NCBI GenBank assembly: GCA_030645645.1
Contig: JAUSNC010000006.1
Span: 1-29,830, forward strand
DNA from: Candidatus Parcubacteria bacterium
GTDB taxonomy: Bacteria > Patescibacteriota > Minisyncoccia > Minisyncoccales > UBA6532
Reading direction: 5' to 3'
Length of the DNA stretch: 29,830 bases
Within the stretch, counting starts at the first letter, position 1; every line of letters begins with the position of its first letter. A program made the position numbers and the translations under genes. Under the pieces are notes generated by a model. It was not told the DNA's origin, made no database searches, and saw only the letters and a list, made by a program, of their open reading frames with translations. This document shows positions 2,597 through 13,460 of this stretch, one piece after another.

Positions 2597-4372
2597 TTAA
2601 AATTTGACAGTTTCTCCCGGAGCTATAAATCCCTTCTTTTCCCCATTATTCTTTCTCTTTTTATTGGAATCTTCTTTATCTAAAGATTCTCCGATAGCTT
2701 TTTTTAATTCATTTAAATCGGGACCGCTTCCTTTAGGATTAGAAGTATGGGATTCCGTGGTTTGTCTCTGCTGTCTAAAAGACATTGCGCCCTTCTCAAT
2801 TGCTTCCTTTAATGATACGGGAGGAGTGCGGGGAGCTATTTCCGGCGGCGGAATTCTTCTTCCTTCTTCCTTTTCATTCTCAATTTTTTTCCGGCAAGGC
2901 TTACAGTAAACCGGCCTGACTCCGTCCGGCTGGAATACTACTTTGGTTGATTTACCGCATTTTGAACATTGGGCATCATATAGAGTATGTTGCGGTTCTT
3001 CAGGTATATCTCTTCCAAAAAAACTTTGGGGCAACCCGGGGGAACGGGGCTCCTGGCTTTTTGTCTGGGCAGATTTTTCAGCCGATGCGTCTGAAACTCC
3101 TGCCCAGTCCGAGATATATTCATCAACGATTTTACGGGGTGTTCCGTATTTTTCGCGGGATGATTCATTAATTTCTTTTTCGTAGGATTGATCAGGCTTC
3201 GGCATTGGTTTTAAAGTTTCAGCTGAAAAAGGCCGTCCGGCTAAACCGTCAATCATAAGCTTAAGATAAATATTATATTTTCCGAGATTAACCAGATCCG
3301 CAGCCAAGAAATCAGGGGTGAATTCCCTTTCTAAAAACTCTGCATCATCGGCTCCTACGCGGAATGTAACAAGCGTTCCTACATTGCCAAAAACGGCGTC
3401 TCTGACTGTTTCATCCATTTGAGTGATATATTGATGGGTAAGGATCAGAGTCAGGCGGTATTTTCTGGCTTCAGATAAAATATTAGCAAATGATTCCGTT
3501 GCAAAATTTTGGAATTCATCTACATAAAGATAGAAATCTTTTCTGTCTTTTTCCGGCATATCAACGCGGGACATAGCGGCCAACTGCAGTTTAGTCACCA
3601 CAAGCGCCCCAAGAAGCCTGGAATTATCCTCTCCGACTTTTCCTTTAGAGAGATTGATGATGAATATCTTTTCCGTATCCATAATTTTTCTCATATCGAG
3701 CTTTGTCTTTTCCTGTCCGACGATATTACGGATAAGAGGCGCTGAAATGAACTGACCTATTTTATTCTGGATTGCCGCAGTGGCTTCAACTTCATATCGC
3801 TGGGTATATCTTGCAAATTCCTGGGTCCAAAAAGCTTTTACCACTGGGTCAGTAACTTTATCTATGACTTTTTTCCTATAAACCAAGTCGGAAAGCATTC
3901 TGTTTACGCCCAAAAGCGTTGATCCGGGATATTCCAAAAGAGCTAGAATGCAGTTATTTAAAATATATTCCATTCTGGCAGACCAGACATCCGGCCATAT
4001 CTTCTTAAAAACGCCCATTAACCCGCCGGCGACCAAATGACGGTATTGCGGAGCCACTTCCTCCATAATATTGAAAGCTATCGGAAAATCAAAGTCGGAA
4101 GGATTAAAATAGACTACGTCTTTTACTCTCTCCTTGGGGATAAAGGCCAGGATCTCTTCTGCCGCCTCTCCGTGCGGATCAATAAAGGCCATGCCGTGTC
4201 CGGCAGTTATATCTTGAATTGCCATATTTACAAGCATATTCGTCTTCCCCATTCCCGTCTTTCCGACAACATACATATGGCGCCTCCGGTCATCTGTTTT
4301 TATGCCAAATTTCTTTCGCGCATTGCGGAAAGTCGTTTCAGCAAAAAAATTTATTTCTGTTTTTTCAGCCAT
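2597..4372 (-). CDS. VirD4/TraD/HerA-like P-loop ATPase with C-terminal CxxC-x17-CxxC zinc-ribbon
   Basis: Walker A GKTGMGKT, IDPHG, Walker B LYVDEFQNF, SEARKY; CSKC-17 aa-CKPC near the C-terminus. Confidence 0.85.
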   Translation of the reverse strand: MAEKTEINFFAETTFRNARKKFGIKTDDRRRHMYVVGKTGMGKTNMLVNMAIQDITAGHGMAFIDPHGEAAEEILAFIPKERVKDVVYFNPSDFDFPIAFNIMEEVAPQYRHLVAGGLMGVFKKIWPDVWSARMEYILNNCILALLEYPGSTLLGVNRMLSDLVYRKKVIDKVTDPVVKAFWTQEFARYTQRYEVEATAAIQNKIGQFISAPLIRNIVGQEKTKLDMRKIMDTEKIFIINLSKGKVGEDNSRLLGALVVTKLQLAAMSRVDMPEKDRKDFYLYVDEFQNFATESFANILSEARKYRLTLILTHQYITQMDETVRDAVFGNVGTLVTFRVGADDAEFLEREFTPDFLAADLVNLGKYNIYLKLMIDGLAGRPFSAETLKPMPKPDQSYEKEINESSREKYGTPRKIVDEYISDWAGVSDASAEKSAQTKSQEPRSPGLPQSFFGRDIPEEPQHTLYDAQCSKCGKSTKVVFQPDGVRPVYCKPCRKKIENEKEEGRRIPPPEIAPRTPPVSLKEAIEKGAMSFRQQRQTTESHTSNPKGSGPDLNELKKAIGESLDKEDSNKKRKNNGEKKGFIAPGETVKF

Positions 4373-7714: not shown

Positions 7715-9118
7715 TTAAATTAAGGGTGTCCAAAGTTTTTTATATTTCTCGAACCTTGTTCCTATAAATATTCTCAGGAATTGGCGGGTTATGAAAATTG
7801 CAGAAAACATACTGACAATAATACCCAAAGAAAGGGTTAAGGCAAATCCCTTAATAAAACTGGTGCCTAAGCTGAAAAGAATAAATCCTACTATCAGACT
7901 GGTTAAATTACTGTCCCTAATTGAAGGCCATGCTCTCCTAAATGCCTCTTCTAAGGCCGTAGAAAAATCTTTATTTTCCGCCAATTCTTCCTTTAGCCTG
8001 GCGAAAATCAGAATATTGGCGTCTATTGCCATTCCTATAGAAAGGACAAATCCTCCTATTCCCGCCAGTGTCAAAGTAACCGGAATCAATTTAAATATAG
8101 ATAAAATAATGACTACATATATAAATAGAGCAATGGCTGCTAAAAGGCCCGGCAATTTATAAAAGATTATCATAAATATAACTATGGCCAGGAAACCATA
8201 TATGCCCGCTTTTAGAGATTTTTCAAGGGAAGATGCTCCTAAAGTAGGTCCTACTTTCTGTTGGGAAATCAAATTTATCGGTACTGGCAATGCTCCTGCG
8301 CTTAAATTTCTGGCTAAAGTTTTAGCTTCCTCAACCGTAAATTGGCCGGTAATTTGCGCTTCGCCTCCTGCAATAGCCTCCTGCACAACCGGTGCTGATA
8401 TTAATATATTATCTATATAAATTGCCAAAGGCTTTCCAATATTTCTGCCGGTCAAATCCTTAAATAGATCAGTTCCTTCCTTATTAAATTTAATGGAAAT
8501 TGAAGGTCTGTAGGTTGTTTGATCAAACGCCAGTTCAGATCTTTCCAGATAACGGCCGTTAAGATCGGTCGGTTTAAAATTAGGATCTTCCAATGCCAGT
8601 TGCCAATCAGGAATATTTTGTGCTTCCTCAAGAGATTTCCCTTCAACTTCTTTCTGCTTATCCAATATCATTTGGGTTTCTTCGCTTGATCGCTGCTCCC
8701 GGAATTCAAGGAAGGGAGTTTCTCCGATCATTTTTATTGCTTGCGCAGGATCCTGGACTCCGGCCAGCTCCACGAGCAATCTATAATGATCTCCCGCTTC
8801 TTCAACTTGGACAACGGGTTCCTGTACACCGAACAAATTAACTCTCCTTTCAATAACATCCCTCAATCCCTGCATTGCGGTATTATAATCGGCTTTATTT
8901 ACCTTGGACAAATCGGCGTCATAAAGAAGCTGAACTCCTCCTTCCAAATCCAAACCCATCCTGAATGGAACATCAAAAAAATGCGGGACAGCAAGTCCTA
9001 ATCTTGCATTCAAATAATCCATCCCTTGATTGAAATATTTGGGATAGCTGTAATTTCCGGCCAGAAATCCGAGAATGGCAACCGCGATAATTATTATAAC
9101 AACGTTATTTCTTTTCAT
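7715..9118 (-). CDS. secD: Protein translocase subunit SecD
   Basis: GLDLEGG, RRVNLFGVQEP, GALP, GMAIDANILIFARLKEE and DSN motifs. Confidence 0.96.
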   Translation of the reverse strand: MKRNNVVIIIIAVAILGFLAGNYSYPKYFNQGMDYLNARLGLAVPHFFDVPFRMGLDLEGGVQLLYDADLSKVNKADYNTAMQGLRDVIERRVNLFGVQEPVVQVEEAGDHYRLLVELAGVQDPAQAIKMIGETPFLEFREQRSSEETQMILDKQKEVEGKSLEEAQNIPDWQLALEDPNFKPTDLNGRYLERSELAFDQTTYRPSISIKFNKEGTDLFKDLTGRNIGKPLAIYIDNILISAPVVQEAIAGGEAQITGQFTVEEAKTLARNLSAGALPVPINLISQQKVGPTLGASSLEKSLKAGIYGFLAIVIFMIIFYKLPGLLAAIALFIYVVIILSIFKLIPVTLTLAGIGGFVLSIGMAIDANILIFARLKEELAENKDFSTALEEAFRRAWPSIRDSNLTSLIVGFILFSLGTSFIKGFALTLSLGIIVSMFSAIFITRQFLRIFIGTRFEKYKKLWTPLI

Positions 9119-9148: not shown

Positions 9149-9250
9149 ATTCTATTTAACTATATTCGCACAAATTAAAATTTTTTTCAACCTATAGATA
9201 ATCTATCTTAGTTAACTCTTGCATAAGAACATTATCGGTTACCTTTTATT

Positions 9251-9352
9251 TTATTTCCCATGGCACTTCATATTCGCACTGCTGTACTCAGTATTTCGTC
9301 GCCTGCACTCATCAACTACGCGTTATCATGCGCCATGACAACGCTTATATTT
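9251..9352 (-). repeat. Repeat unit A (att-like; contains two secA-end relics and a 25-bp palindrome)
   Basis: Minus strand: AAATATAAG-cgtTGTCATGG-CGCATGATAA-cgcg-TAGTTGA-21 nt-TGAGTAC-...-aagTGCCATGGGAAATAA. Palindrome at 9320-9344: GCGTTGTCATG/CATGATAACGC. Confidence 0.75.
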
Positions 9353-9361
9353 CTCTCGTTA

Positions 9362-9619
9362 TTAAAAATAAATATCGTGATCGCCAACGGCAAGGAGTAC
9401 TGCCTCGGCGCGGGACAAATATAAAAATACAATGCGAAACCGATAATTTATCGCAAAACTATAACGCCCCGCAAGGCGCCCATGCAATTTATGAACCTTT
9501 AATATGCTATGATTTTTACGATCTTGGAATAAACTTATTTTTTCAAGAATCTCCTCTCGAAGAGGCCTATTAAGCACCTTGAATTGACGTACAAAGTTGG
9601 GCGCGTAAGATATTTTCAT
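9362..9619 (-). CDS. RelE/ParE-superfamily type II toxin (HigB/YafQ-like)
   Basis: 85 aa; HKLHGRLAGRYSFAINYRFRIVF and C-terminal VGDHDIY; directly downstream of the antitoxin. Confidence 0.85.
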   Translation of the reverse strand: MKISYAPNFVRQFKVLNRPLREEILEKISLFQDRKNHSILKVHKLHGRLAGRYSFAINYRFRIVFLYLSRAEAVLLAVGDHDIYF

Positions 9620-9624
9620 GCGGG

Positions 9625-9846
9625 TTACGGCATTTTGCCCGCAAGTTTTTTGAGATTACCCCGCAATACCTTGCCTTCATGAACCTCTTGTTCCGACTTT
9701 AAAACCGCCACAACAGCCTGTTCTTCGGCAAGAAACCGAAGCGCTTTGCGCACCACCTCCGCCTTGTTTTGTGCAAACCCCTCTTTTACCAGCATGTCAA
9801 TAAATTCTTCCAGCGTGGGACTTAATGGAATTGATAATGTTGCCAT
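9625..9846 (-). CDS. Ribbon-helix-helix (ParD-like) antitoxin
   Basis: 73 aa; N-terminal beta strand TLSIPL followed by helices with the NKAEVVRKALR RHH signature; 5 nt upstream of the toxin. Confidence 0.8.
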   Translation of the reverse strand: MATLSIPLSPTLEEFIDMLVKEGFAQNKAEVVRKALRFLAEEQAVVAVLKSEQEVHEGKVLRGNLKKLAGKMP

Positions 9847-9863
9847 AGTTTTGTATATAATTA

Positions 9864-9917
9864 TATGATATTATAATATTACAATATCATACTATCAAAC
9901 CATAATCAATCTGTCAA
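9864..9917 (-). promoter_or_regulatory. TA promoter with overlapping palindromic operator
   Basis: TTGACA (9917-9912)-17 nt-TAGTAT (9894-9889), with extended TG. 28-bp near-perfect palindrome TATGATATT-A-TAATATTA-C-AATATCATA at 9864-9891. Confidence 0.8.
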
Positions 9918-9922
9918 GATTA

Positions 9923-9994
9923 TTATCTTCCATGGCATTTTTGGTACTCATCCCATTATAGAAATTGTCATGCGGGAAAAATTTCCTTATATTT
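9923..9994 (-). repeat. Repeat unit B (att-like; ends in secA-end relic YQKCHGR*)
   Basis: Minus strand: AAATATAAG-11 nt-CGCATGACAA-tttctataatggga-TGAGTAC-caaaaa-TGCCATGGAAGATAA. Confidence 0.75.
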
Positions 9995-10024
9995 ACTGAC
10001 TTTTTGATGTTTTTTCGAAAAACC

Positions 10025-10074
10025 TGTCATGTGTTTTTTCGTCAACTATGCCGGTTTATAGAAAATGTCATGCG
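10025..10074 (-). repeat. Partial repeat unit C
   Basis: Plus 10056-10074 TTATAGAAAATGTCATGCG matches 9956-9974 at 18/19, exactly 100 bp apart. Also has TAGTTGAC (minus 10048-10041) and another TGTCATG at 10025-10031. Confidence 0.7.
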
Positions 10075-10080
10075 AGCTTT

Positions 10081-10533
10081 TCAACCAGAAACCACATAGG
10101 CAAGGACATCGAAGCTTGGATCGTGAAATTCAATCATCTCATACTCTGGCCGCTTAATGAGGCGCAAATTATCAGGATGGTCGGATAGGTAATCTTTCTT
10201 GAAGGATTCATAACCTGTCTCGAAGTCATTACATCCAACCTGTGGGCGTTCTGGGTCGGGCCTTCTAATTCGCAGGTGTGTTATCTGATTTTTCCCAGCA
10301 ATAATGGGCTCATTTAGCTCAACTCGCGGGCCGTTATTGTAGTTATATAGCTTTCCCATTTCTTCCAATATCTTGGTTAGCTTTTCGAACTCAGCTTCCG
10401 AGTGGGCAAATATCGTTAATGATTTAATTGGTAATTCTTTGTCGATTACTTTCCTAGCCAACTCAGAAGTCCTGATGGCTACATACTGCACCGCCTCGAC
10501 CAACTCTTCTTTGTTCTGGATCGATTTTTCCAT
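10081..10533 (-). CDS. Hypothetical protein, 150 aa (possibly VOC/glyoxalase-like fold)
   Basis: Probable start MEKSIQNK at 10533, 4 nt after the secA stop; the longer ORF-track start overlaps secA. Motif LRIRRPDPERPQVG..DF. Fold call is tentative. Confidence 0.7.
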   Translation of the reverse strand: MEKSIQNKEELVEAVQYVAIRTSELARKVIDKELPIKSLTIFAHSEAEFEKLTKILEEMGKLYNYNNGPRVELNEPIIAGKNQITHLRIRRPDPERPQVGCNDFETGYESFKKDYLSDHPDNLRLIKRPEYEMIEFHDPSFDVLAYVVSG

Positions 10534-10537
10534 GATT

Positions 10538-13012
10538 TTATCTCCCATGACACTTCTTAAATTTCTTACCGCTTCCGCAGGGACAGGGATCGTTCCTGCC
10601 TGCAACGCTCACGGACTTATTTATAGAAGAATTATTACTGGTTTGTGAAACAAAATTCTGAATAGGATTTTTCTGTTCGCGCATTTCCGCCTTAATAATG
10701 GATTGCACAATACCGCTCTCCATATTTTTTAAAAGATTCTGGAACATCAGTCTTGACTCTCCTTTATATTCTATTAAAGGATCTTTTTGTCCGTACGCTC
10801 TCAACCTGACTGTATCGCGAAGATGCTCCATATTATCCAGATGTTCCATCCATAAAAAATCCAAAATCTTCAGACTGGAAAATTTTTCAAGACTGCGCAT
10901 ATTTTCACTTCCTATCTCTTTTTCTTTTTTTACATAATCTTCTTCCGAAACACCGGAATTTCTGAACATCTCCAGAATATCTTCCTTTAAGGTTCCATCC
11001 TGCTCTTTCTTTAAAATCTCTCCTCTTTTTCTATAAATCACGTCCCTGTGCTTATTTAAAACGTCGTCGTAATCCAGAACATGCTTTCTTAAATCAAAAT
11101 TTGCTCCTTCAATTTTCTCCTGAGCGGATTCAATAACTCCGGAAACCATTTTGGCTTCTATTGGTTCGTCTTCCGGCACTTTAAGCATTTCCATTATGGA
11201 TTTAATTCTGTCTCCACCGAAAATCCTCATTAAATCGTCTTCTAAAGAAATAAAGAATTGGGTGGAACCGGGATCTCCCTGCCTGCCTGATCTTCCTCGT
11301 AATTGATTATCTATTCTTCTCGCTTCATGCCTTTCAGTGCCTATCACATGGAGCCCGCCTTGCTCTGTAACTTTTTGAGCCTCCTCTGGGCTCAGCGGAT
11401 TCCCACCGAGAACGATATCCACTCCACGGCCTGCCATATTGGTGGCAATTGTTACTGCGCCGAATCTTCCTGCTTGGGCTATTATTTCTCCTTCTTGTTC
11501 ATGATGCTTTGCATTTAGAATCTTATGAGGGATACCTTCTATGTCCAATAGTTTTCCCAGATATTCGTTTTTCTCTATTGAAACAGTTCCAACTAGAACG
11601 GGCTGGCCTTTTGCATGCATTTCTTTTATTTCTCTTACCACTGCCCTAAACTTTCCCTCCCCTGTTTTATAAATTCTGTCCGGCAAATCATTACGAACCA
11701 TCGGAAGATGAGTGGGAACTATTGCAGTATCCAGTTTATATACCTTTTCAAATTCCTCGGCGGAAGTGGCGGCAGTACCTGTCATTCCTGCCAACTTCTT
11801 ATACATTCTGAAATAATTTTGAAACGTAATTGAGCCTAATGTTAAGGATTCCGGTTGTAATGTAACACCTTCTTTAGCTTCAATGGCCTGGTGCAGTCCG
11901 CCTGACCATCTGCGCCCCGGCATTACCCTGCCAGTAAACTCATCTACAATAATTACCTGTCCGTCTTTCACAATATAGTCCTTGTCTCTGGCAAAAAGGG
12001 GCTGACCGGTTTTTGAATTTATCGCCTGCGCTCTCAATGCCTGCTCCAGGTGATGCAAATATCTTATTCCTTTTTCCTGATAAATATCTTTCATTCCTAA
12101 AATCTCTTCAACCTTCTCTATTCCATGCTCAGTTATTGTTACCGCTCTCATTTTCTCATCAATTTCATAATCAAGACTGGGGTCCAACCGGCGTATTATT
12201 CCGGCAAATTCAGAATACATTTTTGATGACTCCGTATCAGGGGATGAAATAATCAGAGGAGTTCTTGCTTCATCAATCAGAATAGAATCAACCTCGTCAA
12301 CTATGGCAAAATTATATCCGCGCTGAACCTGATCTTTTAAGTCATACGCCATGTTGTTGCGTAAATAATCAAATCCGTATTCATTATTAGTTCCATAGGT
12401 TATATCCGCTGAATATGCTTCTTTTCTTGAACACGGCCTTAAAAAATCCTCAACTACTTTAAATGCGCCGAGTTCATCTCTTATTTTATCCATCTTTTCA
12501 TCCTGTTTTTTAAAAGCCGGGTCATACAGGAAAGATTGGTCATGGTTTATACATCCGATTGTTAGTCCTAAAAAGTTGTATATCTGACCCATCCACACGG
12601 CATCTCTTCTTGCCAAATAATCATTCACTGTTACCAGATGGCAACCTTCTCCTGTCAGCGCATTTAAATATACAGCCAAAGTAGCGGTTAATGTTTTCCC
12701 TTCTCCTGTTTTCATTTCAGCAATCTTTCCCTGGTGCAGAACTATTCCTCCGATAAGCTGAACATTAAAATGACGCTGATTCAAAGTTCTTTTACTCGCC
12801 TCTCTTACCAGGGCAAAGGCTTCAGGAAGAATATCATCAAGTGTTTTGCCTTTTTTAAGACTTTCCTTTAATTCGTCAGTTTTTAGCCGCAGATCTTCAT
12901 TAGAAAAACCCTCGAATTTTGGTTCGAGGCGATTTATCATCTCAATCACCGGCTGTAACTCCTTTATATATTTATCGTTGGCGTCTCCGAATATTTTGGT
13001 TAGAAATGACAT
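10538..13012 (-). CDS. secA: Preprotein translocase ATPase SecA with SEC-C motif
   Basis: MKTGEGKT, DEVDSILIDEARTPLIIS, TNMAGRGVDI, RRIDNQLRGRSGRQGDPG; C-terminal GRNDPCPCGSGKKFKKCHGR. Confidence 0.98.
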   Translation of the reverse strand: MSFLTKIFGDANDKYIKELQPVIEMINRLEPKFEGFSNEDLRLKTDELKESLKKGKTLDDILPEAFALVREASKRTLNQRHFNVQLIGGIVLHQGKIAEMKTGEGKTLTATLAVYLNALTGEGCHLVTVNDYLARRDAVWMGQIYNFLGLTIGCINHDQSFLYDPAFKKQDEKMDKIRDELGAFKVVEDFLRPCSRKEAYSADITYGTNNEYGFDYLRNNMAYDLKDQVQRGYNFAIVDEVDSILIDEARTPLIISSPDTESSKMYSEFAGIIRRLDPSLDYEIDEKMRAVTITEHGIEKVEEILGMKDIYQEKGIRYLHHLEQALRAQAINSKTGQPLFARDKDYIVKDGQVIIVDEFTGRVMPGRRWSGGLHQAIEAKEGVTLQPESLTLGSITFQNYFRMYKKLAGMTGTAATSAEEFEKVYKLDTAIVPTHLPMVRNDLPDRIYKTGEGKFRAVVREIKEMHAKGQPVLVGTVSIEKNEYLGKLLDIEGIPHKILNAKHHEQEGEIIAQAGRFGAVTIATNMAGRGVDIVLGGNPLSPEEAQKVTEQGGLHVIGTERHEARRIDNQLRGRSGRQGDPGSTQFFISLEDDLMRIFGGDRIKSIMEMLKVPEDEPIEAKMVSGVIESAQEKIEGANFDLRKHVLDYDDVLNKHRDVIYRKRGEILKKEQDGTLKEDILEMFRNSGVSEEDYVKKEKEIGSENMRSLEKFSSLKILDFLWMEHLDNMEHLRDTVRLRAYGQKDPLIEYKGESRLMFQNLLKNMESGIVQSIIKAEMREQKNPIQNFVSQTSNNSSINKSVSVAGRNDPCPCGSGKKFKKCHGR

Positions 13013-13082: not shown

Positions 13083-13460
13083 TTAATGGATTATCAGCTT
13101 AACTTTCATCTTTTTCGCCTTAAAGAAACTCTTTGCGTATTTTGCCAATTTCTTTGAATCAAAAATGCTGCAGGAAAAAATATTCAAAAATGCTGTACTG
13201 TCATTCTCTATAAAGTGGCCTGTCATAGAACTTACTGAAAGGAATTGCAGAAAAGAATAACCCATGCCAAATAGGCCTCCTCCCATAAAGCGCTTGATAC
13301 GCGAGGGTCCGTATGTTTTAAGCTTCACTTTTTTACTTGCTTCCTGAATAAACTCTTTTATTTTTGATTTGGAGGATATTGTTTTAATATCACATTTGAA
13401 AAGTTCCAGAATGAGTTCCATTCCGTAAATTTTCCTCCCTTCCTTATTTCTTTTATGCAT
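13083..13460 (-). CDS. S-adenosylmethionine decarboxylase (SpeH/SpeD)-like pyruvoyl proenzyme
   Basis: 125 aa; G-x-x-L-I-L-E-L N-terminus, GYS...LSVSSMTGH (aligns with LSESHISIH), NIFSC. Substrate uncertain. Confidence 0.75.
   Translation of the reverse strand: MHKRNKEGRKIYGMELILELFKCDIKTISSKSKIKEFIQEASKKVKLKTYGPSRIKRFMGGGLFGMGYSFLQFLSVSSMTGHFIENDSTAFLNIFSCSIFDSKKLAKYAKSFFKAKKMKVKLIIH

What the first reader, a model, noticed from the sequence alone, without database searches (positions are those of the whole stretch)
9251..9994. Units A and B share a conserved att-like architecture with an 11-bp variable spacer
Seen: both units read AAATATAAG-N11-CGCATGAYAA on the minus strand (9352-9323 and 9994-9965), with identical spacing but different N11 (cgttgtcatgg vs gaaatttttcc). 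Both then carry GATGAGTRC/TGAGTAC and end in TGCCATGG-R-A-R-ATAA. secA itself has the left arm (AAATTTAAG), the core and the RARATAA tail, but not the CGCATGA arm. Inference: the pieces assort like recombination products. secA would be B-core-B', 9352-9323 would be B-core-P', and 9946-9923 and 9290-9251 would be P-core-B'. The layout does not match integron attC (no RYYYAAC/GTTRRRY) or dif.
Basis: partly seen in the sequence, partly recalled or inferred. Interest (0 to 1): 0.7.

Follow-up and report, generated by a model that had tools for sequence, protein, structure and literature searches.

The report
Displaced secA gene-ends at cassette junctions
The two repeated "units" are worn copies of the last codons of the essential secretion gene secA (with its stop-codon hairpin), and they sit at the joints where small genes were slotted in behind secA, a gene-capture habit common in these ultra-small groundwater bacteria whose enzyme is still unknown.

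Summary
Observation confirmed; interpretation partly supported. Both units carry AAATATAAG-N11-CGCATGAYAA and end in TGCCATGG-RAR-ATAA, far beyond chance.

They are not hybrids of secA with a foreign element arm. TGYCATGGRARATAA is the end of secA (C-H-G-R-stop). In unit A the "N11" is simply codons R-C-H-G. "CGCATGAYAA" is an inverted copy of that core. Together they form an 11-bp hairpin over a stop codon.

In at least 12 other CPR contigs this palindrome is the real end of a full-length SecA. Unit A (9352-9251) is 85% identical over its length to such a secA-end module. Unit B belongs to the 3' flank that travels with the ORF147 gene in other genomes.

The units lie at homology breakpoints:
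- The ORF147 block (10570-9930) recurs elsewhere at 78-87% nt identity, and the toxin-antitoxin block (9918-9362) at 85-86%.
- The flanking secA and secD are only 65-68% identical.
- Near-identical strains differ by a 954-bp insertion flanked by 185-nt secA-end repeats.

No recombinase gene is linked. So the units are recombination joints, but whether a site-specific integrase in trans or plain homology made them is open.

Unchecked AI notes from this scan report similar secA-tail arrays in at least 36 other genomes.

The parts
10538..13012 (-). secA, 824 aa, ending in the SEC-C zinc-finger tail ...CPCGSGKKFKKCHGR-stop
   Evidence: ORF list. 65-66% aa identity to SecA of L140 and L143.
10538..10570 (-). 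T0: the functional secA tail (G-K-K-F-K-K-C-H-G-R-stop). It is also the 5' end of the ORF147 block. Core TGTCATGG lies at 10552-10545. Its ATG (10548-10546) is in frame with ORF147.
   Evidence: The same tail precedes ORF147 homologues as a displaced relic in L136, L139 and G019.
10081..10524 (-). ORF147, a conserved Patescibacteria protein with no Pfam family. It is the first inserted gene.
   Evidence: No Pfam hit. 289 homologues at 63-89% identity. Several N-terminal extensions read through a secA tail.
9975..10074 (-). Unit U1a: starts with the inverted-core copy CGCATGACAT (10074-10065), then TTTCTATAA and TAGTTGA (10048-10042). It is the 3' flank of ORF147.
   Evidence: Collinear with L139, and its head with L136.
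9923..9994 (-). Unit B:
- AAATATAAG (9994-9986)
- decayed left arm (9985-9975)
- CGCATGACAA (9974-9965)
- GATGAGTAC (9952-9944)
- core TGCCATGG (9937-9930)
- AAGATAA (9929-9923)
   Evidence: The orthologous unit follows ORF147 in L139, and the alignment ends at base 9930. The predicted fold is no better than shuffles.
9362..9918 (-). Toxin-antitoxin block:
- promoter TTGACA-17-TAGTAT (9917-9889)
- operator-like palindrome (9891-9864)
- ribbon-helix-helix (RHH)/ParD antitoxin (9846-9625)
- RelE/YafQ-like toxin (9619-9362)
   Evidence: Pfam, promoter scan, repeats. 85-86% nt identity to L140 and L141, against 65-68% for secA and secD. Antitoxin 92% aa, toxin 81-82%.
9251..9352 (-). Unit A, a displaced secA-end module:
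- tail K-Y-K-R-C-H-G-A-stop (9352-9326)
- 25-nt palindrome (9344-9320)
- spacer with GATGAGTGC (9313-9305) and TGAGTAC (9290-9284)
- second tail copy TGCCATGGGAAATAA (9265-9251)
   Evidence: 85% identical to the L133 module and collinear with L121, L118 and L127. The first 36 nt are 94% identical to the real secA end of G179.
7715..9118 (-). secD, the conserved far flank of the variable interval
   Evidence: Pfam. The secA...secD order is kept in 25 loci, with a gap of 102-4783 nt.

Best explanation
Units A and B are displaced copies of the 3'-terminal module of secA. They mark the joints at which separate gene blocks were added between secA and secD.

The module has four parts:
1. the last SEC-C codons (K-Y/F-K-x-C-H-G-x-stop);
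2. an inverted copy of those codons, which closes a hairpin over the stop codon (the CGCATGAYAA "arm");
3. a spacer;
4. a second tail copy whose CATGG supplies the ATG of the next gene.

Each added block brings or duplicates one module, so old secA ends are pushed downstream.

Shown here:
- the identity of the units;
- their conservation in other genomes;
- breakpoints located at the units;
- horizontal exchange of the TA block;
- one insertion/deletion polymorphism flanked by module repeats.

Inferred: the enzyme. My leaning (about 45%) is that no dedicated recombinase is involved. The tail is nearly identical at the DNA level across lineages and would serve as portable homology for RecA-type recombination of incoming DNA. 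That could be a double crossover between tail copies or Campbell-type insertion of a circle.
For: **Identity of the units**
- TGYCATGGRARATAA is the secA stop region, and its three copies are unique to this locus.
- The palindrome GCGTTGTCATGG..CATGACAACGC ends a full-length SecA in at least 12 contigs. It is a displaced copy behind another functional end in L121 and L133.
- Unit A aligns end to end with such modules (85% identity).

**Orientation and locus**
- A tail profile finds 102 hits on the secA strand against 4 on the other strand in 348 kb of secA-downstream DNA.
- secA...secD is conserved, with a variable gap holding 73 co-oriented ORFs against 13 opposite ones.

**Joints**
- Homology to L139 runs 10567->9930 and stops at the last base of the core.
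- Homology to L140 and L141 runs 9918->9362.
- Unit A starts at 9352.

**Exchange**
- The TA block is 85-86% nt identical, against 67.7% for secA and 65.4% for secD.
- SecA is 65% aa identical, against 92% for the antitoxin.

**Polymorphism**
- L118/L126 differ from L127 (99.6-100% identical otherwise) by a 954-bp DUF1653+TA insertion flanked by 185-nt module repeats at 98.4% identity.

**For homology rather than an integrase**
- No PF00589 or PF00239 hit in G000.
- Most relatives (366 of 401) show a tyrosine recombinase, usually a single Xer-sized one. Wherever I could compare positions it lies far from the array.
- Repeat length varies from about 15 to 185 nt.
- The TA block carries no site of its own.
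Against: - Breakpoints sit very close to the 8-bp core. That is what a fixed crossover site would give.
- The palindrome has 9-11-bp inverted arms around a short variable centre. It is identical in distant CPR lineages while the neighbouring codons vary. That fits a protein-binding core site as well as an RNA hairpin.
- Tail identity between distant lineages is often only 15-25 nt, which is short for RecA.
- G000 is 88% complete, so a recombinase may simply be unassembled.
- Earlier notes of this scan (unchecked by me) report integrases using secA-tail sites in other CPR genomes.
- The first duplication of a tail is not explained by homology alone.
Confidence: 0.45

Rival explanations
1. True att sites. 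A tyrosine or serine integrase supplied in trans (by a phage, plasmid or integrative element, or the host's single Xer-like enzyme) recombines at the TGYCATGG core or the palindrome. Integrase-less blocks accrete in tandem behind secA, like cis-mobilisable elements.
For: - Direct repeats of the target gene's end flank every block, and secA is always reconstituted.
- Homology to L139 ends exactly at the core.
- The TA block lands directly after a tail stop codon in five contexts.
- The palindrome has inverted arms with a variable centre and is conserved at DNA level across lineages.
- Earlier scan notes describe integrases at secA tails in other genomes (not tested here).
Against: - No recombinase in the window or in G000.
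- None lies near the arrays in the relatives checked.
- Repeats vary from about 15 to 185 nt.
- The TA block has no site of its own.
- Most secA ends in the order lack the palindrome, yet still have relic tails.
Confidence: 0.35
2. The repeats are kept mainly for RNA function: a stop-codon hairpin, plus a tail-derived start region that couples translation of the next gene to secA. They multiplied by local duplication. Recombination at them would be incidental.
For: - The ATG inside CATGG is in frame with the next ORF in many loci. P0007 has no second ATG.
- Hairpin arms co-vary with the tail codons: GCGTTGTCATG/CATGACAACGC against GAGATGCCAC/GTGGCATCTC, and a further pair in L133.
- The one mismatch in the window's hairpin is a G-U pair.
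- Spacer hairpins show compensatory changes.
Against: - This does not explain why blocks with different histories meet at the units, nor the 954-bp presence/absence polymorphism.
- Unit B and U1a fold no better than shuffles (z 0.13 and 0.47), and unit A only weakly (z -1.67).
- T1 and the last tail copy are followed by ORFs of only about 10 codons.
- No Rfam family matches.
Confidence: 0.1
3. The arms are operators for the ribbon-helix-helix (RHH) antitoxin or another regulator.
For: The units flank the TA pair. Unit A holds a palindrome.
Against: - The TA block brings its own promoter-overlapping palindrome (9891-9864). That palindrome is conserved with the block in L140, L141 and L143, where units A and B are absent.
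- The unit A module occurs at secA ends with no TA genes nearby.
- Unit B follows ORF147 in L139, which has no TA pair.
Confidence: 0.02
4. Chance resemblance of short AT-rich motifs.
For: The exact 30-nt pattern is at chance level across all GTDB species: 18 hits found, about 17 expected by my own estimate from the pattern's information content.
Against: - Zero expected in the window.
- The CPR hits all carry the secA core as N11.
- The units align over their whole length with other genomes.
Confidence: 0.01

Closest known systems
Tandem accretion of integrative elements and integrase-less CIMEs at the 3' end of a conserved gene (e.g. ICESt1/ICESt3 at fda; from general knowledge, also named in earlier scan notes)
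   Same: The inserted DNA is flanked by direct repeats that copy the target gene's end. The gene is rebuilt after each insertion, and older ends are pushed downstream. Some units have no recombinase of their own.
   Different: The blocks here hold one to two genes (0.5-0.7 kb). No integrase was found in the array or the genome. Repeat length is very variable. The target is the SEC-C coding tail of secA in CPR bacteria.
Integrons (IntI, attI, attC cassette arrays; general knowledge)
   Same: Co-oriented, mostly promoterless small genes are stacked next to a fixed anchor. TA pairs occur inside the arrays. A folded palindrome lies at cassette ends. Expression from upstream is possible.
   Different: There are no RYYYAAC/GTTRRRY boxes, no IntI, and no attI or Pc. 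The repeat is a copy of a coding gene end. The TA block has its own promoter and no attC-like site.
SCC/SCCmec composite regions at the 3' end of rlmH (orfX) in staphylococci (general knowledge)
   Same: Serial insertion into the last codons of a housekeeping gene, with direct repeats bounding each element.
   Different: SCC elements are large and move by the CcrAB/CcrC serine recombinases. No such genes are found here.
pdif modules of Acinetobacter plasmids and other Xer-dependent elements (general knowledge)
   Same: Small modules, often TA pairs, bounded by short palindromic recombinase sites and moved by a host enzyme acting in trans.
   Different: The palindrome here has 11-bp arms with a 3-nt centre (or 9+7), not 11-6-11. 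It overlaps a stop codon, and it is absent from most secA ends in the order.
Variable regions between conserved core genes that turn over by homologous recombination (general knowledge)
   Same: Conserved flanks (secA, secD) enclose highly variable content. The blocks are more similar between genomes than the flanks are.
   Different: Plain flank-to-flank replacement leaves no internal repeats. Here each block is separated by a copy of the secA end.

Membership tests
Integron attC site | Inverse core RYYYAAC and core GTTRRRY at the ends of an imperfect palindrome | tested here: not met
   Read directly from the unit sequences. The inverted pair is TGYCATGG / CCATGRCA, and neither consensus box sits at a unit boundary.
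Integron attC site | An IntI integrase with attI and Pc next to the array | tested here: not met
   No PF00589 hit in G000, which is 88% complete. In relatives with arrays the only tyrosine recombinases lie far away.
Integrase att sites at a gene 3' end (attL/attR, accretion) | Direct repeats copying the target gene's 3' end flank the inserted DNA, and the gene stays intact | tested here: met
   There are three copies of the secA stop region plus a fourth core copy. secA is intact. The same holds in G019, G044, G133, G159 and others.
Integrase att sites at a gene 3' end (attL/attR, accretion) | An integrase gene at one end of the element, or demonstrably acting in trans | tested here: not met
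   Action in trans is not testable with these tools.
Integrase att sites at a gene 3' end (attL/attR, accretion) | Occupied and empty sites in otherwise identical genomes | tested here: met
   L118/L126 against L127 show a 954-bp insertion between 185-nt repeats. This was seen in a related module, not in the window's own strain: read laying gave no usable cover.
Integrase att sites at a gene 3' end (attL/attR, accretion) | A fixed crossover position within a short core | tested here: inconclusive
   L139 homology ends at the last base of the core, and the TA homology starts 12 nt later. In L118 the three mismatches cluster at the right end of the repeat. There are too few pairs to decide.
Xer/dif-type site | Two 11-bp arms around a 6-8-bp centre resembling dif, one per replicon | tested here: inconclusive
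   The palindrome has 11-bp arms with a 3-nt centre (or 9+7). Only a minority of genomes have it. Binding is not testable here.
REP/MITE-type dispersed palindromic element | Many copies scattered through the genome | tested here: not met
   Units U1 and U2 have no other copy in G000. A related spacer hairpin is multicopy in a few other genomes (up to 6 copies).
Intrinsic terminator | A GC-rich hairpin followed by a T run | tested here: not met
   No terminator-like site is called at either unit. The unit A hairpin is followed by GTAGTTGATG.
Antitoxin operator | A palindrome overlapping the TA promoter that travels with the TA genes | tested here: not met
   That description fits 9891-9864, not the units.

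The most novel reading that the evidence does not exclude
The secA-end module (tail, inverted copy forming a hairpin, spacer hairpin, second tail with the start codon) is the recombination site of an undescribed, integron-like gene-capture system in CPR bacteria. A recombinase acting in trans (the single Xer-like enzyme, or a phage enzyme) would insert one-gene blocks into the last codons of an essential gene. There they would be expressed by coupling to secA and held in place by toxin-antitoxin blocks.
Probability: 0.25. Interest if true: 0.85.

Novelty: new variant of a known kind. Interest (0 to 1): 0.6.

Why it matters
CPR/Patescibacteria have tiny genomes, and little is known about how they gain genes. 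The interval behind secA turns out to be a shared landing strip. Unrelated lineages swap small housekeeping-type genes there (NUDIX, ASCH, DUF1653, nucleotidyltransferase, HD) and toxin-antitoxin pairs, and each swap leaves a readable scar.

The scars allow the order of insertions to be reconstructed. They also give a concrete, testable recombination substrate, including a palindrome conserved at DNA level over the secA stop codon. If a dedicated enzyme exists, this would be a new cassette system anchored in an essential gene. If not, it is a clear natural case of a conserved coding tail acting as portable homology for gene capture.

A practical point: these repeats seem to break metagenome assemblies at secA.

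Tried and rejected
- **Read and contig laying.** Only three runs from one study were available, contigs only. None covered the window's own array. Many contigs from other organisms matched just 10538-10600 and 9248-9354. That was a useful lead (unit-A-like sequence is common there), but it shows nothing about excision here. The single joint 9352/10763 came from another organism and is ambiguous.
- **Rfam.** No family at gathering score, and only noise at E about 4.
- **Exact pattern scan of GTDB species.** Hits were at chance level apart from three CPR hits.
- **Dispersed-repeat idea for the units.** No other copy in G000.
- **RNA folding.** Unit B and U1a fold no better than shuffles. Unit A scores z -1.67, driven by the palindrome alone.
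- **Hairpin survey.** It is biased by how I collected the loci, so I used it only to list co-varying arm pairs.
- **Similarity of the toxin's C-terminal codons to the SEC-C start.** Judged to be the toxin family's own conserved motif, so a chance resemblance.
- **Translational bypass between the two CATGG copies.** Considered and dropped, because it would give no different protein.
- **Literature.** Nothing found on secA-tail arrays.

Full report
**1. What is there**

The window is contig C60 of a 505-kb, 88%-complete CPR-type genome. On the minus strand the order is:
- secA (13012-10538), ending ...CPCGSGKKFKKCHGR-stop;
- ORF147 (10524-10081);
- a 158-nt non-coding stretch;
- a ribbon-helix-helix (RHH)/ParD antitoxin (9846-9625) and a RelE-like toxin (9619-9362);
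- a 111-nt non-coding stretch;
- secD (9118-7715).

The key to them is that TGYCATGGRARATAA is simply the last five codons of secA (C-H-G-R-stop). Three direct copies exist, spaced 615 and 672 nt apart, and nowhere else in the genome.

In unit A the "N11" contains a fourth copy of the core, so 9352-9326 reads K-Y-K-R-C-H-G-A-stop. CGCATGAYAA is the reverse complement of that core. Together they form a 25-nt palindrome (9344-9320), predicted as an 11-bp hairpin.

**2. The "element arm" is native to secA**

The first 36 nt of unit A are 94% identical to the real end of secA in G179 and 88% identical in G238.

A metagenome scan for the palindrome found 21 contigs. In at least 12 of them, together with G179 and G238, a SecA alignment runs through residue 823 into the left arm of the palindrome. 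In L121 and L133 the same module lies 65-92 nt behind another functional secA end, as a displaced copy.

The module is followed by a spacer and then a second tail copy, TGYCAYGG-NNN-TAA. Unit A aligns end to end with these modules, at 85% identity to L133. Contigs from other organisms in the source aquifer also match 9248-9354.

Other tail variants carry their own matching inverted arm, for example GAGATGCCAC/GTGGCATCTC. The hairpin is therefore selected for. Whether it acts as RNA or as DNA I cannot tell.

Spacer hairpins of another type (CCGTAGYGAAGC...GCTTCTRCTAC) show compensatory variants. They are multicopy in a few genomes.

**3. Unit B travels with ORF147**

The ORF147 family is strongly conserved: 289 homologues at 63-89% identity, with no Pfam family. 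Several N-terminal extensions in the database are read-throughs of a secA tail.

- In L139 the gene is not next to secA, yet it keeps a relic tail in front and the whole 158-nt stretch behind, including unit B. That is 78.5% identity over window 10567->9930, ending at the last base of the core.
- In L136 the same block (86.7% over 10570->10052) lies behind a secA that has a different, longer tail.
- G019 shows the same arrangement, with two further relic tails downstream.

The N11 of unit B (GAAATTTTTCC) is matched by TAAAATTTATC in L139. It is therefore a decayed left arm, not a free spacer.

**4. The units are joints between independently exchanged blocks**

The TA block, window 9918->9362, is 85-86% identical at DNA level to L140 and L141. 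There it follows the functional secA stop codon. The flanking genes are much less similar: secA 67.7% and secD 65.4%. At the protein level SecA is 65% identical, the antitoxin 92% and the toxin 81-82%.

The block starts 4 nt after unit B's stop codon and ends 9 nt before unit A. It carries its own promoter and palindromic operator.

A clean polymorphism exists in near-identical strains. L127 has secA-module-next gene. L118/L126 have secA-module-DUF1653-antitoxin-toxin-module-same next gene. The 954-bp insertion is flanked by 185-nt repeats (98.4% identical) that start at the G-R-N-D-P codons of the SEC-C motif.

**5. How general it is**

Among 401 genomes of the order, 55 have the 15-mer. Seven of those have two or more same-strand copies within 80-700 nt. 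All of the copies I inspected lie behind secA.

A tail profile gives 102 hits on the secA strand against 4 on the other. More relics appear in G002, G189, G236 and G141.

The secA...secD order is conserved, but the gap between them varies from 102 to 4783 nt. It holds 73 co-oriented ORFs and 13 opposite ones. The contents are very diverse, and the same families recur at different positions: NUDIX (16 members), metallophosphoesterase, DUF1653, ASCH and others.

Earlier notes of this scan describe similar arrays in at least 36 genomes. I treated these as leads only.

**6. Mechanism**

The following are shown:
- the units are displaced secA-end modules;
- they lie at block boundaries;
- blocks move between lineages;
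- one insertion/deletion is bounded by module repeats.

The enzyme is not shown. I found no tyrosine or serine recombinase in G000. Most relatives (366 of 401) show a tyrosine recombinase, usually a single Xer-sized one. Wherever I could compare positions, it lies far from the array.

I lean (about 45%) to homology-guided recombination that uses the conserved tail as portable homology. About 35% goes to a site-specific integrase acting in trans. About 10% goes to RNA-function repeats with recombination incidental. Operators and chance are effectively excluded.

**7. Verdict**

The att-like reading is partly right: the units are recombination joints made of copies of the target. Its arm assignments are wrong, and "att site" in the strict sense remains unproven.

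No paper describing this was found. It is a new variant of accretion at a gene's 3' end, of moderate to high interest.

Noticed in passing
window 10081-10524 (-): ORF147 belongs to a strongly conserved Patescibacteria family: 289 homologues at 63-89% identity, with motifs YNYNNGPRVEL and PQVGCNDFETDY. It has no Pfam family. It often sits directly behind a secA tail, which suggests a possible functional link to secretion.
   Followed up: partly
window 9864-9918 (-): The TA block carries a near-consensus promoter (TTGACA-17-TAGTAT with TG) overlapping a 28-nt AT-rich palindrome. Both are conserved with the block in L140, L141 and L143.
   Followed up: partly
G169:C10:8328-8427 and 23 other genomes: A REP-like hairpin (CCGTAGTGAAGC..GCTTCTACTAC) shows compensatory stem variants. 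It usually has 1-2 copies per genome, but 6 in G169, including three tandem copies 37 nt apart. In G044, G052 and G179 it lies between the secA stop and a relic tail.
   Followed up: partly
L014, L016-L018, L030, L059, L136 (secA 3' ends): Many secA genes carry a longer tail, CPCG-AKKPDGRPIKYKHCHGK-stop. It is followed 55-310 nt later by a relic of the canonical tail (G-S-G-K-K-Y-K-K-C-H-G-K-stop) that overlaps the next gene's start, as if a new tail plus spacer had been inserted after CPCG.
   Followed up: partly
L136 (contig end 94 nt before the ORF147 homologue); G373:C7 end; L118 end: Several metagenome contigs stop inside or next to a secA tail copy. These repeats may therefore break assemblies.
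   Followed up: no
G164:C1 about 11226 (L033/L063): A tail relic followed by an ASCH gene lies about 7 kb from secA, beyond secD, metK, secF and a HIT gene. In G333 the same ASCH gene directly follows the secA stop.
   Followed up: partly
L132:8400-8800 and L017 (G044) 2923-3240: A 95-aa membrane-protein block (MENLEQR...WLKxK) is flanked by secA-end modules in two unrelated genomes, with its 3' end abutting a degenerate SEC-C copy in both.
   Followed up: partly
window 13083-13460 (-): An AdoMet-decarboxylase-like gene lies directly upstream of secA. In L143 a spermine synthase occupies that side, and in L140 a SAM hydroxide adenosyltransferase.
   Followed up: no
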